NCBI GenBank assembly: GCA_022711395.1
Contig: JAKLFA010000003.1
Location: forward strand, 34,509-98,508
DNA from: Candidatus Omnitrophota bacterium
GTDB lineage: Bacteria; Omnitrophota; Gorgyraeia; Zapsychrales; JANLHA01
Direction of reading: 5' to 3'
Length of the DNA: 64,000 nucleotides
Below the pieces are notes generated by a model, which ran no database searches, was not told where the DNA came from, and saw nothing but the letters and a program-made list of their open reading frames with translations. This document shows positions 48,656 to 55,685 of the stretch, piece after piece; within the stretch, counting starts at the first letter, position 1, and each line of letters starts with the position of its first letter. The position numbers and the translations under genes are program-made.

Positions 48656-48694
48656 CGCCTCCTTTGTTCAATATCCAAAAGCCCGCACGCGGAC

Positions 48695-48729
48695 AAAAAA
48701 AATGCCCGCTTCCTTCGAAGAAAGCGAGC
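48695..48729 (-). terminator. Leader terminator of a probable PyrR-dependent attenuator. Hairpin GCUCGCUUUCUUC / GAAGGAAGCGGGC followed by U8, about 40 nt upstream of the pyrR start codon.
   Basis: Base pairing was checked by hand: 11-13 bp including two G-U pairs, with a TCGA-type loop. A candidate PyrR-binding loop AUCCAAUGAGAUUG (compare the consensus UCCAGAGAGGCU) lies about 50 nt further upstream, and a possible antiterminator AGCUU...AAGCU overlaps the 5' arm. Confidence 0.5.
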
Positions 48730-48952
48730 TTCTATACATCACAAGCTGAAAATTTTTAAAATTTTTCAATCTCATTGGATCCTTTACGGCCTCACAGGAC
48801 CGCTTTAAAGGTTGTATATTGATGCAAATATAGCACTTCCGATGCCATCTGTCAAGCAAATGAAAAATCCGCTTCACGAAAAGAAAACGCTTCCTAAATA
48901 AGTGGATTCGGAATTGAAGTCAAAATCGTTATATACTATACTCATATTAACT

Positions 48953-53395: not shown

Positions 53396-53399
53396 AGAC

Positions 53400-55685
53400 A
53401 TGACTAGAAACGCCGTTCACAATTTGCGCCTTTTCAGATCACGAGCAGCGAAACTTTCACTGGCCTTTGGCCTGTTTTTGTCCTTTAACCCGTCGGTCCT
53501 TTCAGCACAAACACGTTCTTTAACGATCCGGACCTACCTGTCTCCGCCGATCGAAGCGTTTGACCGAATACGCCTCATACCGAACCTGCCGGCGGCAAAC
53601 GGCTCATCCTGTGACCCGGGATCGTTCTATCTGAATTCATCCGCAGGCCCATTGTTCTGCGACAACGGCACATGGCGGTCCTTCTCATCCGTATGGAGCA
53701 AGAACGACGACATTCTCACTCTGAAGAACACGGATTGGCAATACCAGCGGGTCGGCATCGGAACAAGTGAGCCTCAATTCAAGCTTTCACTGGACCAAGA
53801 CGGCGGCATCCTGGCCAAAGATGTTTTAGCGGCCGGCAGCTCCAGTTATTCGAATCCTCCTGAGATCAGAGACAGCGCCGCCCTGCTCTGGTCGCCCAGA
53901 ACTGCCAGCCTGAGAGCCGGAGAGGTGCGGGGTCCGACCCTGTGGCGCTCCACAAACATCTCGTCATATTCGACAGTTTTCGGGCTCAACAACACAACGA
54001 CCAGCGTGGGATCTGCTTACAGTTCGATCCTGGGAGGGGAAAACAACTTGATCGCGAACACAAATTTTTCAACGATCATCGGGGGCATGAATAACGCGCT
54101 CAACGCTCCCTCCTCGGGAAATTTCCAGGCGATCTTAGGCGGAAGCGGGAATCTGATCGGCAGCTATAACTGCAACGGCTGCCTGATCGGCGGAGGCCAA
54201 TCGAACACGATCAGAACAAGCTTCTATTCGGCCATCGGCGGCGGGAGCGGCAACTTCATGGACCGGGGAAACGGTTACAATGCCATTATCGGCGGTTCCG
54301 GCAATATGATCCAGCTGAACGAAAAATCTTTCATCGGCGGCGGGCAGAATAATTTATTAACAATGGAAACGCTTTATGACGCCCAAAACCTCTCGCTTAT
54401 TCCAAACTCCCAGCCCGCTTTTTCGAGCATCATCGGCGGCGGCGGGAACGGATTCACCCCTGTCAACGGCCTGCCCTCCCAGGGAAACCTGATCGGGGGA
54501 AGCGCGTATTCCATGATCGGCGGCGGGAGCGGCAATCAGGTCCGCGGCCTTTTTTATAACGTGGTTTACGGCGGGCAAAACAACCGGATCGTGGCCCTTA
54601 ACGCAAGCCTGCAGCCTAAGAATATCCACGCCAGCTCGATCGGCGGAGGAAAGTCCAATACCGTATTGAGTTCTTTTTCTCTTATCGGGGGAGGCGAAAG
54701 CAATGTCGCCGGCCTGGCAGCATCAAGCCATGAAGCCAACAGCTACGCCACAGTCATCGGCGGGTTCAACAATGAGGCCAGCGGCCACTATTCGTTTGTG
54801 GGCGGCGGGCAGAACAACACCGCCAGCGGCGACTATGCCACGGTCGGGGGCGGTAACGGCAACACCGCCAGCGGGGACTACTCTTTCGTCGGAGGAGGGT
54901 CAAGCAATTCCGCCCAGGGCGACTATTCCGCGGTATTCGGCGGCCAGAACAACGCCGCTTTCGGGGACCATTCCTTTGCCGGCGGACGCAATATGGCCGC
55001 GTTGGGGGCCCGCACCTTTATCTGGGGCCACGACGATACCGTGCGCACGGCCTCGAGAAGCGACACCTTCATCATCATGTCCCAAAAAGTCGGGTTCGGA
55101 ACCCTTGCTCCTGAGGCCAAACTGCACGTCAAGGGAAATGTCCTGATCGAATCAACATCCATCCCATATTCTTTGATCCTGAGCAATCCTCCGACGCTAA
55201 CAACATCGTCATGGCCAATGAACGTTGACACCTCCATCGGGACCATCGGCTTCGATATCGCCGAGGAGTTCGCCTCCACGCAGGCCATTTCAGCCGGAGA
55301 TGTCCTGGTAATGGACACTGAGAACCCCGGACATCTCAAAATCAGCGACACCGCCTACAGCCCCCGCGTGGTCGGAGTGGCTTCCCAGGCCCCGGCCGTG
55401 ATCCTCAAAGGGTCACAAATGGAACTGAAACCCAACGCGATCAGCTTTGAAACTGGAACGACCCCGCCCGTCGCCCTGAAAGGGCGGGTGGCCGTCAAGG
55501 TCTGCCTTGAGAACGGGCCCATCATGCCGGGGGACGCCCTCACCACCGCCTCCATTCCCGGACACGCCATGCGCGCGGCCGACAACGCGCTCTCAACAGG
55601 TGCGATCATCGGAAAAGCGCTGGAGCGCTTCGACGGCAGCGAAAACCAGACCGGCATGATCGCCGTGTTCGTTTCGTTATATTAA
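53400..55685 (+). CDS. Secreted fibrous beta-repeat protein, paralog 3.
   Basis: Signal peptide ending SVLSAQ. SSCDPGSFYLNSSAGPLFC, VGIGTSEPQFKLSL, repeats SFVGGGQNNTASGDYATVGGGNGNTASGDYSFVGGGSSNSAQGDYSAVFGGQNNAAFGD, FGTLAPEAKLHVKGN, and C-terminal GDALTTASIPGHAMRA...IIGKALERF...IAVFVSLY. Its stop overlaps the convergent rsmI stop by 4 nt. Confidence 0.7.
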   Translation: MTRNAVHNLRLFRSRAAKLSLAFGLFLSFNPSVLSAQTRSLTIRTYLSPPIEAFDRIRLIPNLPAANGSSCDPGSFYLNSSAGPLFCDNGTWRSFSSVWSKNDDILTLKNTDWQYQRVGIGTSEPQFKLSLDQDGGILAKDVLAAGSSSYSNPPEIRDSAALLWSPRTASLRAGEVRGPTLWRSTNISSYSTVFGLNNTTTSVGSAYSSILGGENNLIANTNFSTIIGGMNNALNAPSSGNFQAILGGSGNLIGSYNCNGCLIGGGQSNTIRTSFYSAIGGGSGNFMDRGNGYNAIIGGSGNMIQLNEKSFIGGGQNNLLTMETLYDAQNLSLIPNSQPAFSSIIGGGGNGFTPVNGLPSQGNLIGGSAYSMIGGGSGNQVRGLFYNVVYGGQNNRIVALNASLQPKNIHASSIGGGKSNTVLSSFSLIGGGESNVAGLAASSHEANSYATVIGGFNNEASGHYSFVGGGQNNTASGDYATVGGGNGNTASGDYSFVGGGSSNSAQGDYSAVFGGQNNAAFGDHSFAGGRNMAALGARTFIWGHDDTVRTASRSDTFIIMSQKVGFGTLAPEAKLHVKGNVLIESTSIPYSLILSNPPTLTTSSWPMNVDTSIGTIGFDIAEEFASTQAISAGDVLVMDTENPGHLKISDTAYSPRVVGVASQAPAVILKGSQMELKPNAISFETGTTPPVALKGRVAVKVCLENGPIMPGDALTTASIPGHAMRAADNALSTGAIIGKALERFDGSENQTGMIAVFVSLY

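What the first reader, a model, noticed from the sequence alone, without database searches (positions are those of the whole stretch)
48656..55685. Three tandem paralogs of secreted YadA-head / tail-fibre-like beta-repeat proteins, forming the only plus-strand island in the window
Three adjacent genes of 714-782 aa each have a signal peptide, an N-terminal disulfide-pair module (C...G..Y...C.NG.W) and two collar motifs of the form GIGT(S/A)xP(S/A)xKL. They also have 300-400 aa of GGxN / IGGG..N left-handed beta-roll-like repeats typical of trimeric-autotransporter heads and phage tail fibres. A conserved C-terminal domain of about 150 aa reads (DLAERF..GDV....YD.RV.GVVS..P...P.AL.GRV..KV....GPI..GDLL..SS.PGHAM.A....GKALE.F......I...V.L). 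That C-terminal domain is neither the S74 intramolecular-chaperone pattern nor an autotransporter barrel. The block is flanked by housekeeping genes (pyrR and rsmI), not phage genes, and interrupts an otherwise uniformly minus-strand region. The repeat cores are highly diversified between paralogs while the termini are conserved, which suggests diversifying surface fibres or adhesins, possibly of domesticated tail-fibre origin.
Basis: partly seen in the sequence, partly recalled or inferred. Interest (0 to 1): 0.65.

Follow-up and report, generated by a model that had tools for sequence, protein, structure and literature searches.

The report
Secreted fibres with phage-type self-cleaving chaperone
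Three neighbouring genes of an uncultured Omnitrophota bacterium encode exported adhesin-like fibres; their "unknown" tail domain is a distant relative of the self-cleaving assembly chaperone of phage phi29's appendage protein, and that domain marks a very large family of fibre proteins that databases leave unannotated.

Summary
Three tandem + strand genes (48953-51250, 51251-53395, 53400-55685) encode 765, 714 and 761 aa paralogs. Each has a signal peptide, two invariant N-terminal cysteines and two GIGTxxPxxKL collars. Each also has a ~15-residue-period beta-roll that matches the UspA1 head (E 2e-21 to 3e-5), and a conserved ~145 aa C-terminal domain.

The interpretation needs one major correction. 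The C-terminal domain is not unknown. It is a divergent homologue of the phi29 gp12 "autochaperone" (MEROPS/Pfam Peptidase_G2, tandem beta-tulips):
- The AF2 model (pLDDT 94) has gp12 fragment 3gqh as its top PDB hit.
- Profile-profile comparison with canonical G2 domains gives 97% probability, E 1e-10.
- The domain begins with D-[LI]-A-E, aligned to gp12's cleavage site S691|D692-F-A-E695.

The genes are nevertheless cellular, not prophage: they carry Sec signal peptides, have housekeeping flanks, and a distant relative has a syntenic three-gene array next to rsmI.

The domain family is very large (30,566 cluster representatives). It never reaches Pfam's threshold and is named "hypothetical". 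Phage tail fibres carry it too.

Verdict: a new variant of a known kind. Cleavage, trimerisation and surface display are inferred, not shown.

The parts
48953..51250 (+). Fibre gene 1 (765 aa from ATG 48953; the ORF opens at GTG 48902, 782 aa)
   Evidence: UspA1 head match E 2.5e-15
51251..53395 (+). Fibre gene 2 (714 aa); its ATG directly follows the stop codon of gene 1
   Evidence: UspA1 head match E 3e-5; found as identical protein on 6 contigs
53400..55685 (+). Fibre gene 3 (761 aa); its stop codon overlaps the 3' end of convergent rsmI by 4 nt
   Evidence: UspA1 head match E 2e-21
48953..49012 (+). Predicted Sec signal peptide of protein 1 (MKRFLLICILILGVTHNASS | QT)
   Evidence: sequence inspection
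51251..51313 (+). Predicted Sec signal peptide of protein 2 (MTMKKLLLTICLLLLTRTAAA | QT)
   Evidence: sequence inspection
53400..53507 (+). Predicted Sec signal peptide of protein 3 (...KLSLAFGLFLSFNPSVLSA | QT)
   Evidence: sequence inspection
49013..49303 (+). N-terminal leader (IxIxxYxxxPxxxFxxIxLxP) plus two-cysteine module of protein 1 (C56, C74); no known relatives
51314..51571 (+). N-terminal leader plus two-cysteine module of protein 2 (C56, C75)
53508..53753 (+). N-terminal leader plus two-cysteine module of protein 3 (C71, C87)
49304..49336 (+). Collar 1 of protein 1 (GIGTSTPAFKL). It opens the conserved cap module (..LDxDGGI..W.PKKAALRAG..) that precedes YadA_head repeats in relatives
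51572..51604 (+). Collar 1 of protein 2 (GIGTASPSLKL)
53754..53786 (+). Collar 1 of protein 3 (GIGTSEPQFKL)
49460..50632 (+). Beta-roll repeat core of protein 1 (approx. aa 170-560; G/S/N-rich, period ~15)
51728..52795 (+). Beta-roll repeat core of protein 2 (approx. aa 160-515)
53997..55079 (+). Beta-roll repeat core of protein 3 (approx. aa 200-560). AF2 is confident (pLDDT 80-94) for aa 370-540
50654..50686 (+). Collar 2 of protein 1 (GIGTASPSERL)
52817..52849 (+). Collar 2 of protein 2 (GIGTLDPSERL)
55092..55124 (+). Collar 2 of protein 3 (GFGTLAPEAKL); weak hit to phrog_28668
50807..51247 (+). C-terminal gp12-like tandem beta-tulip autochaperone domain of protein 1. It starts with DLAE (50807-50818). 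Predicted self-cleavage between F618 and D619
52964..53392 (+). C-terminal gp12-like autochaperone domain of protein 2. It starts with DLAE (52964-52975). Predicted cleavage L571|D572. This is the domain modelled by AF2 (pLDDT 94)
55254..55682 (+). C-terminal gp12-like autochaperone domain of protein 3. It starts with DIAE (55254-55265). Predicted cleavage F618|D619

Best explanation
The three genes form one operon of old paralogs in a Candidatus Omnitrophota genome. Each encodes a Sec-exported fibre or adhesin.

Proposed pathway:
1. The signal peptide is removed.
2. The protein folds outside the cytoplasm. Its body is a YadA/UspA1-head-type left-handed beta-roll with ~15-residue turns, bracketed by two GIGTxxPxxKL collars.
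3. Folding and trimerisation are nucleated by the C-terminal ~145 aa domain. This is a tandem beta-tulip 'autochaperone' homologous to domain D4 of the phi29 pre-neck appendage protein gp12 (Peptidase_G2).
4. As in gp12, the domain is expected to cut itself off once the trimer is formed. The cut would fall at the peptide bond just before the conserved D-x-A-E (F618|D619, L571|D572 and F618|D619 in proteins 1-3). This leaves a mature fibre of about 550-600 residues.
5. The conserved N-terminal leader plus disulfide module probably docks the fibre to the cell envelope. The three divergent bodies would give three binding specificities, plausibly for attachment to other cells.

Shown: gene structure, domain architecture, homology of the body and of the C-terminal domain, conservation of D-x-A-E, cellular rather than prophage context.

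Inferred: signal-peptide cleavage, trimer, self-cleavage, release, surface location, adhesin role.

The confidence of 0.62 is for the whole pathway. Homology of the C-terminal domain to the gp12/G2 autochaperone alone I put at about 0.9.
For: C-terminal domain is gp12-like.
- A profile of the domain against PDB sequences finds only gp12. The alignment starts exactly at D692 'DFAEYFE', which is residue 1 of the released fragment 3gqh. The uncleaved 'pre-mature' entry 3suc carries DFAQ there.
- Mature gp12* ends at residue 691 (PMC6542822).
- The AF2 model of the domain has pLDDT 94.2 and pTM 0.89. Its top Foldseek PDB hit is 3gqh (E 1.9e-4, prob 1.0), followed by tandem beta-tulip phage cement proteins. 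gp12 D4 is known to be two beta-tulips (bioRxiv 10.1101/216911).
- hhalign against the gp12 C-terminus alone gives 91% probability, E 1e-6. Against an alignment of nine canonical G2 domains it gives 97%, E 1.2e-10 over 100 columns spanning both tulips, with D-x-A-E on D-x-A-E.
- Several family members give sub-threshold PF11962 hits.
- In the 45-sequence alignment A and E are invariant and D is conserved in at least 90%. D-x-A-E is present in 453 of 493 domain instances.
- The same domain closes virion tail-fibre proteins that lack signal peptides: PA5oct gp359 (detected in virions by MS) and phage Phosso. It gives 72 BFVD hits with TM up to 0.78, including proteins named 'preneck appendage protein' and 'tail fiber protein'.

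Body.
- All three proteins match the UspA1 head 3pr7.
- The repeat period is ~15 residues.
- Relatives of the cap module carry Pfam YadA_head.

Cellular and exported.
- Signal peptides are present.
- Most complete homologues in bacterial genomes also have one: at least 42 of 66 by a crude test.
- The flanks are pyr genes, rsmI and glmS.
- A syntenic three-gene array sits next to rsmI in a relative.
Against: - No experiment or proteomic data shows cleavage or a trimer here.
- None of the three proteins reaches any Pfam, NCBIfam or PHROG family threshold for the C-terminal domain. Sequence identity to gp12 is only ~15-20%.
- By my recollection of Xiang et al. 2009 (paper not held), release of the cleaved gp12 domain needs ATP. 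ATP is not available outside the cytoplasm.
- In many Patescibacteria proteins the domain is internal and duplicated, with 150-1100 residues after it. That is not the classic 'disposable C-terminal cap' arrangement.
- There is no route across an outer membrane and no identified anchor.
- The N-terminal module could not be modelled (pLDDT below 50) and has no known relatives.
Confidence: 0.62

Rival explanations
1. [quoted passage not shown] It would be a permanent trimerisation, protein-binding or envelope-docking module, as beta-tulips are in phage cement and decoration proteins. It would not be a self-removing chaperone.
For: - After gp12, the next-best structural matches are non-cleaving capsid cement proteins.
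- The domain is internal and often duplicated in giant Patescibacteria proteins.
- About 8% of copies lack D-x-A-E.
- Release of the gp12 domain is ATP-dependent (own knowledge), which is implausible outside the cell.
Against: - D-x-A-E sits exactly at the domain boundary and is kept in 92% of copies. A and E are invariant in the 45-sequence alignment. Cement proteins do not share this motif.
- Sequence-level homology is to the cleaving G2 family.
- In roughly half of the genomic ORFs the domain is the very last element of the protein.
Confidence: 0.2
2. The genes are ordinary tail fibres of a prophage, tailocin or other contractile or phage-like particle encoded elsewhere in the genome.
For: - The collar motif and the C-terminal domain are shared with phage tail fibres.
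- Only 64 kb of a 538 kb contig was seen.
Against: - All three proteins have Sec-type signal peptides, which the phage homologues lack.
- The neighbours within about 10 kb on each side are pyrimidine-biosynthesis and other housekeeping genes.
- The same array lies next to rsmI in a relative whose rsmI is only 67% identical. That argues for a long-resident chromosomal locus.
Confidence: 0.07
3. They are trimeric autotransporter adhesins (type Vc secretion).
For: Signal peptide plus a YadA/UspA1-type head.
Against: - There is no YadA_anchor beta-barrel and no coiled-coil stalk. The C-terminus is a soluble tandem beta-tulip.
- AF2 predicts no helices beyond the signal peptide.
Confidence: 0.02
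4. They are ice-binding or antifreeze beta-roll proteins.
For: Pfam LbR_Ice_bind passes its cut-off in protein 2 (36 bits against 30). The hits in proteins 1 and 3 are weaker.
Against: - The match reflects the shared G/N-rich beta-roll repeat pattern.
- The UspA1 head matches are far stronger.
- The source samples look like digester or engineered-system metagenomes. This is my reading of the sample names, not verified.
Confidence: 0.02

Closest known systems
Bacillus phage phi29 gp12 pre-neck appendage protein, domain D4 (MEROPS G2 / Pfam PF11962 Peptidase_G2, IMC autoproteolytic cleavage domain; PDB 3gqh, 3suc)
   Same: - A C-terminal tandem beta-tulip domain follows a trimeric beta-helical fibre.
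- The domain begins with D-x-A-E at the known cleavage site.
- It is the top structural hit, and profile-profile comparison gives 97% probability.
   Different: - Only ~15-20% identity.
- The domain lacks the 40-70 residue insert between the two tulips that canonical G2 domains carry.
- It stays below Pfam's threshold.
- The host protein is Sec-exported and cellular rather than cytoplasmic and virion-bound, so the ATP-dependent release step is unlikely to apply.
Moraxella UspA1 / Yersinia YadA heads (trimeric autotransporter adhesins, type Vc)
   Same: - Left-handed beta-roll of ~14-16-residue GGxNxAxG-type turns.
- Direct sequence match to 3pr7 (E down to 2e-21).
- A signal peptide is present.
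   Different: - No coiled-coil stalk and no C-terminal membrane-anchor barrel.
- Trimerisation is presumably driven by a removable autochaperone rather than by the anchor.
Phage tail fibres ending in the same domain subfamily (Pseudomonas jumbo phage PA5oct gp359, Sinorhizobium phage Phosso XYS97449, many 'uncultured Caudovirales' proteins)
   Same: A C-terminal 'ADLAERY...ALAGRVPVKV...GD.L' domain with 32-36% identity and TM 0.7-0.78.
   Different: - The phage proteins have tail-fibre N-termini, no signal peptide and a virion-gene context.
- Their bodies are not YadA-like.
Endosialidase-type intramolecular chaperone (Peptidase_S74, PF13884; K1F endoNF, T5 L-shaped fibre, MyRF ICA)
   Same: The same logic applies: a C-terminal self-cleaving domain promotes trimerisation of a beta-helical fibre. 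GIGTxxPxxKL-type collars are common upstream of it (own knowledge).
   Different: Unrelated fold and a Ser-Lys catalytic dyad. No S74 match here.

Membership tests
Peptidase_G2 / phi29 gp12 autochaperone (IMC) domain | Tandem beta-tulip fold like gp12 D4 | tested here: met
   AF2 model pLDDT 94. Top Foldseek PDB hit is 3gqh, E 1.9e-4, prob 1.0, TM 0.57. The fold description comes from bioRxiv 10.1101/216911.
Peptidase_G2 / phi29 gp12 autochaperone (IMC) domain | D-x-x-E (D692, E695 in gp12) at the N-terminal boundary, i.e. the cleavage site | tested here: met
   DLAE, DLAE and DIAE align to DFAE. D and E are invariant in the canonical alignment. The motif is present in 92% of family copies.
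Peptidase_G2 / phi29 gp12 autochaperone (IMC) domain | Significant sequence match to the family model (Pfam PF11962 gathering score) | tested here: not met
   No PF11962 hit for the window proteins. Relatives give only sub-threshold hits, E 1e-4 to 1e-3. Profile-profile homology is nevertheless significant (97%, E 1.2e-10).
Peptidase_G2 / phi29 gp12 autochaperone (IMC) domain | Lies at the extreme C-terminus of a beta-helical fibre protein | tested here: met
   The domain ends at the stop codon in all three proteins and follows the beta-roll and collar 2.
Peptidase_G2 / phi29 gp12 autochaperone (IMC) domain | Autocatalytic cleavage after trimerisation, and release of the domain | not testable with these tools
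   Needs protein biochemistry or proteomics.
Trimeric autotransporter adhesin (type Vc) | YadA-like head repeats | tested here: met
   UspA1 head 3pr7 matches at E 2e-21, 2.5e-15 and 3e-5.
Trimeric autotransporter adhesin (type Vc) | C-terminal YadA_anchor beta-barrel (PF03895) | tested here: not met
   No Pfam hit at E up to 1. The C-terminus is a soluble tandem beta-tulip.
Trimeric autotransporter adhesin (type Vc) | Coiled-coil stalk | tested here: not met
   No helices beyond the signal peptide in the AF2 secondary structure (low-confidence model).
Peptidase_S74 endosialidase-type intramolecular chaperone | Match to PF13884 / Ser-Lys dyad domain | tested here: not met
   No hit in Pfam, NCBIfam or PHROGs.
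Prophage / tailocin tail fibre | Sits in a virion or tail gene module; cytoplasmic protein without a signal peptide | tested here: not met
   Housekeeping neighbours, signal peptides, synteny with rsmI in a relative. The rest of the genome was not seen.

The most novel reading that the evidence does not exclude
These genes could represent a very widespread, unannotated way of building cell-surface fibres. The protein would be Sec-exported and would fold and trimerise outside the cytoplasm using a phage-type self-cleaving beta-tulip autochaperone, without an autotransporter barrel. This route would be used across Omnitrophota, Patescibacteria, DPANN archaea, Acidobacteriota, Planctomycetota, Bacteroidota and others.

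In Omnitrophota and their relatives, a dedicated N-terminal 'TYYPxPxGxY + disulfide' leader would serve as the envelope-docking adaptor for interchangeable fibre bodies used to attach to host or prey cells.
Probability: 0.3. Interest if true: 0.65.

Novelty: new variant of a known kind. Interest (0 to 1): 0.45.

Why it matters
- It assigns a testable mechanism, self-cleaving assembly at a defined bond, to three 'hypothetical proteins'.
- By extension it does the same for a domain family of about 30,000 sequence clusters that current family databases miss. Members include cultured Acidobacteria and Chitinophaga, where experiments are feasible.
- It shows that YadA-type adhesin heads can be combined with a phage-style removable chaperone in place of an autotransporter anchor.
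- It offers candidate attachment fibres for Omnitrophota and other ultra-small, probably host-dependent microbes, whose adhesion machinery is poorly known.

Tried and rejected
- Direct scans of the three proteins against Pfam, NCBIfam and PHROGs gave only a repeat-driven LbR_Ice_bind hit and one weak PHROG of unknown function.
- Full-length AF2 of protein 3 with a 16-row alignment gave pLDDT 63.6. The N-terminal 160 residues are below 50, so that module stays unmodelled. A Foldseek search with this model was uninformative.
- The N-terminal module profile found only spurious designed proteins in the PDB. NCBIfam found nothing for leader-bearing relatives.
I used a back-translated pattern, KVxxENGPIxxGD, instead.
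- The original gp12 paper (Xiang et al. 2009, Mol Cell) is not held. Details of ATP-dependent release and of the catalytic residues therefore rest on my own knowledge and on the PDB entries seen.
- dN/dS between paralogs was not attempted, because 36-39% identity means saturation.
- Strain-level diversification could not be assessed: all four other assemblies are 100% identical to the window, and all cluster members are identical proteins.
- Ice-binding, trimeric-autotransporter and prophage readings were considered and rejected (see rivals).
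Full report
**1. What is there**

The window carries three adjacent + strand ORFs between pyrR (48104-48655, -) and rsmI (55682-56386, -).
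- Gene 1 opens at GTG 48902. Its ATG at 48953 gives MKRFLLICILILGVTHNASS|QT, which aligns with the N-terminus of gene 2. Gene callers in other assemblies disagree on the start (778, 765 or 695 aa). I take 48953-51250 (765 aa).
- Gene 2 is 51251-53395 (714 aa). Its ATG follows the stop codon of gene 1 directly.
- Gene 3 is 53400-55685 (761 aa), 4 nt after gene 2. It overlaps the 3' end of convergent rsmI by 4 nt.
- Every other + strand ORF of 200 aa or more in the window shadows a - strand gene. GC skew is negative throughout.
- The stretch 48656-48952, included in the finding, does not belong to the fibre genes. It holds a strong - strand promoter (48855-48827, 11 of 12 consensus positions) and a PyrR attenuator (Rfam RF00515, 48695-48815 -, 64 bits) for the divergent pyr operon.

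**2. Architecture of the three proteins**

The three proteins are 36-39% identical overall. They share these elements in order:
- A Sec-type signal peptide ending before an invariant QT.
- A leader of the form IxIxxYxxxPxxxFxxIxLxP.
- Two invariant cysteines within a G..Y.N...C...W pattern.
- Collar 1 (GIGTxxPxxKL) and a cap (LDxDGGI ... W.PKKAALRAG).
- A G/S/N-rich repeat core of 350-400 residues.
- Collar 2 (GIGTxxPSERLHV).
- A linker of about 40 residues.
- A ~145-residue C-terminal domain that begins with D-[LI]-A-E.

The core has a repeat period of ~15 residues. All three proteins match the solved UspA1 head 3pr7 directly, at E 2.5e-15, 3e-5 and 2e-21. Relatives of the cap module carry Pfam YadA_head.

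There is no YadA anchor, no coiled coil and no S74 domain.

**3. The C-terminal domain**

On their own, the three proteins match no Pfam, NCBIfam or PHROG family in this region. Profile and structure methods resolve it.
- A 13-sequence profile searched against PDB sequences found only phi29 gp12. The alignment starts exactly at D692 'DFAEYFE'. That residue is position 1 of the released C-terminal fragment 3gqh. The uncleaved 'pre-mature' entry 3suc reads DFAQ at the same place.
- Mature gp12* ends at residue 691 (PMC6542822).
- AF2 on a 45-sequence alignment gave a confident all-beta model, pLDDT 94.2 and pTM 0.89.
- The top Foldseek PDB hit of that model is 3gqh (E 1.9e-4, prob 1.0). Next come tandem beta-tulip capsid cement proteins. 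gp12 D4 is described as two consecutive beta-tulips that act as an autochaperone for trimerisation (bioRxiv 10.1101/216911).
- hhalign of the family against gp12 alone gives 91% probability, E 1e-6.
- hhalign against nine canonical Peptidase_G2 domains (phi29, Nf, SPbeta-like, phi105, Staphylococcus phages, a Lachnospiraceae phage, cyanophage S-SM2) gives 97%, E 1.2e-10 over 100 columns. The aligned region covers both tulips. D-x-A-E lies on D-x-A-E, and ALAGRVxxKV...GD lies on VGLIGQVxVRID...GD.
- Canonical domains have an extra 40-70 residues between the tulips. This probably explains why PF11962 gives only sub-threshold hits in this family.
- In the 45-sequence alignment A and E are invariant and D is conserved in at least 90%. 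D-x-A-E occurs in 453 of 493 domain copies examined.

I conclude that the domain is a divergent homologue of the gp12/G2 self-cleaving autochaperone.

**4. Cellular or phage?**

The same domain subfamily closes real phage fibres.
- PA5oct gp359 is a virion protein by MS and lies next to the long-tail-fibre gene. A Phosso protein also ends in the domain. Both have tail-fibre N-termini, no signal peptide, and a C-terminal 'YADLAERYE...'.
- BFVD gives 72 viral hits at E of 1e-3 or better, with TM up to 0.78. They include 'preneck appendage protein' and 'tail fiber protein'.

The window genes nevertheless look cellular.
- All three have signal peptides.
- The neighbours within about 10 kb on either side are pyrimidine-biosynthesis genes, fpg, a LOG-family gene, rsmI and glmS.
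- The proteins belong to a Candidatus Omnitrophota MAG, on a 538 kb contig.
- A MAG labelled Planctomycetales has three tandem homologues of the same full architecture next to its rsmI. Its rsmI is 67% identical to the window's, but its fibres are only 28-37% identical. That indicates an old chromosomal locus whose fibres diverge much faster than the adjacent housekeeping gene.

**5. The wider family**

- An exhaustive profile search found 30,566 cluster representatives at E of 1e-3 or better, and 24,972 at 1e-10 or better.
- Of the 120 best indexed hits, 119 had no precomputed Pfam domain. Those that carry a source name are called 'hypothetical protein'. RefSeq also names the proteins of cultured Granulicella and Terriglobus 'hypothetical protein'.
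- A pattern scan of species-representative genomes hit Omnitrophota, many Patescibacteria, Acidobacteriota, Planctomycetota, Bacteroidota, Chloroflexota, Gammaproteobacteria and others. Indexed hits also include DPANN archaea.
- In about half of the genomic ORFs the domain is the very last element. Most complete ORFs start with a signal peptide, at least 42 of 66 by a crude test.
- Tandem arrays recur. Terriglobus albidus DSM 26559, for example, has five adjacent genes.
- In Patescibacteria giants the domain is internal and often doubled, with 150-1100 residues after it. This does not fit a simple removable cap and keeps a non-cleaving role open.

**6. Mechanism proposed**

Shown: architecture, homologies, motif conservation, context.

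Inferred:
1. Sec export and signal-peptide removal.
2. The beta-tulip pair nucleates trimerisation of the beta-roll in a compartment that lacks ATP-dependent chaperones.
3. Self-cleavage occurs before D619, D572 and D619 in proteins 1-3.
4. The conserved N-terminal leader and disulfide module act as the cell-proximal docking end. This is by analogy with phage fibres, whose conserved N-termini dock and whose C-terminal ends bind. The leader also occurs on Omnitrophota proteins with different bodies and ends (P0283, P0284, P0001, P0039, L013).
5. The mature fibres act as adhesins.

Weak points:
- Release of the gp12 domain is ATP-dependent (own knowledge).
- No outer-membrane passage or anchor is identified.
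- The N-terminal module could not be modelled.

**7. On 'diversifying'**

- Between paralogs, identity is 46-49% in the C-terminal domain, 29-36% in the core and 25-33% in the N-terminal module. Only the C-terminal end is clearly more conserved than the core.
- Four other assemblies from different samples are 100% identical to the window over 2.5-15 kb. There is therefore no within-population signal.
- The only support for fast evolution is the contrast with rsmI in the syntenic relative.

**8. Verdict**

It is wrong on the key 'unknown C-terminal domain'.

The thing is a new variant of known kinds: a YadA-type head joined to a gp12-type autochaperone on a Sec-exported cellular protein. Its main value is that it exposes a very large unannotated domain family and gives a directly testable cleavage site.

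Noticed in passing
window 48695-48815 (-), promoter 48855-48827 (-): The intergenic DNA included in the finding holds a PyrR-binding attenuator (Rfam RF00515, 64 bits) and a near-consensus sigma-70-type promoter for the divergent pyrR-pyrB-pyrC operon. A terminator-like hairpin at 48729-48704 (-) lies just upstream of pyrR.
   Followed up: partly
family-wide: The C-terminal domain defines a family of 30,566 cluster representatives (E of 1e-3 or better). No member seen reaches a Pfam threshold for it, and those with a source name are called 'hypothetical protein'. It is a divergent, insert-less branch of Peptidase_G2.
   Followed up: partly
P0126-P0160; loci L009, L010, L012, L014, L015, L020, L030 and others: In giant Patescibacteria and some Gammaproteobacteria proteins (1,000-6,800 aa) the domain is internal and often present twice in tandem. 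It is followed by 150-1,100 further residues, sometimes coiled coil. Some second copies lack D-x-A-E. This suggests processing into two halves, or a non-cleaving role.
   Followed up: partly
L117 1120-7448 (Terriglobus albidus DSM 26559); L023 (Granulicella sp. dw_53); L059, L112 (Chitinophaga): Cultured bacteria carry genes for signal peptide + GIGT collars + this C-terminal domain. T. albidus has five in tandem next to a ferritin-like gene. They would be convenient experimental models.
   Followed up: partly
L120 44-7839 (MAG labelled Planctomycetales): Three tandem homologues of the full architecture lie convergent with an rsmI that is 67% identical to the window's. A CARDB-domain gene sits in between. 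The first gene of the array lacks the N-terminal module in the ORF as read.
   Followed up: partly
P0283, P0284 (Omnitrophica), P0001, P0039, L013 754-2422 (-): The post-signal-peptide leader 'TTYYPAPYG(A/V)Y..I.LVPR', with or without the two-cysteine module, occurs on other small secreted proteins with different bodies. P0283 and P0284 end in '...GGYYATYAP' rather than the beta-tulip domain. No database family matches the leader.
   Followed up: partly
window 52001-52012 (protein 2, C251/C254) and 54171-54182 (protein 3, C258/C261): Proteins 2 and 3 each have a CxxC pair at the equivalent place inside the repeat core (GGCENCD, YNCNGCL). Protein 1 has none there.
   Followed up: no
window 20453-24790 (-), 24937-29352 (-), 29839-31569 (-): Two large proteins (1,445 and 1,471 aa) and a 576 aa protein lie upstream. 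None has a Pfam match. The 1,471 aa and 576 aa proteins have signal-peptide-like N-termini.
   Followed up: partly
L001-L004 against window 41251-58426: Contigs from four different public samples (two ENA, one JGI, one SRA/Logan) are 100% identical in DNA to the window over 2.5-15 kb. Essentially the same clone recurs across datasets.
   Followed up: yes
window 33110-33183 (-), 33287-33359 (-), 45701-45772 (-): Three tRNA genes were found by Rfam.
   Followed up: no
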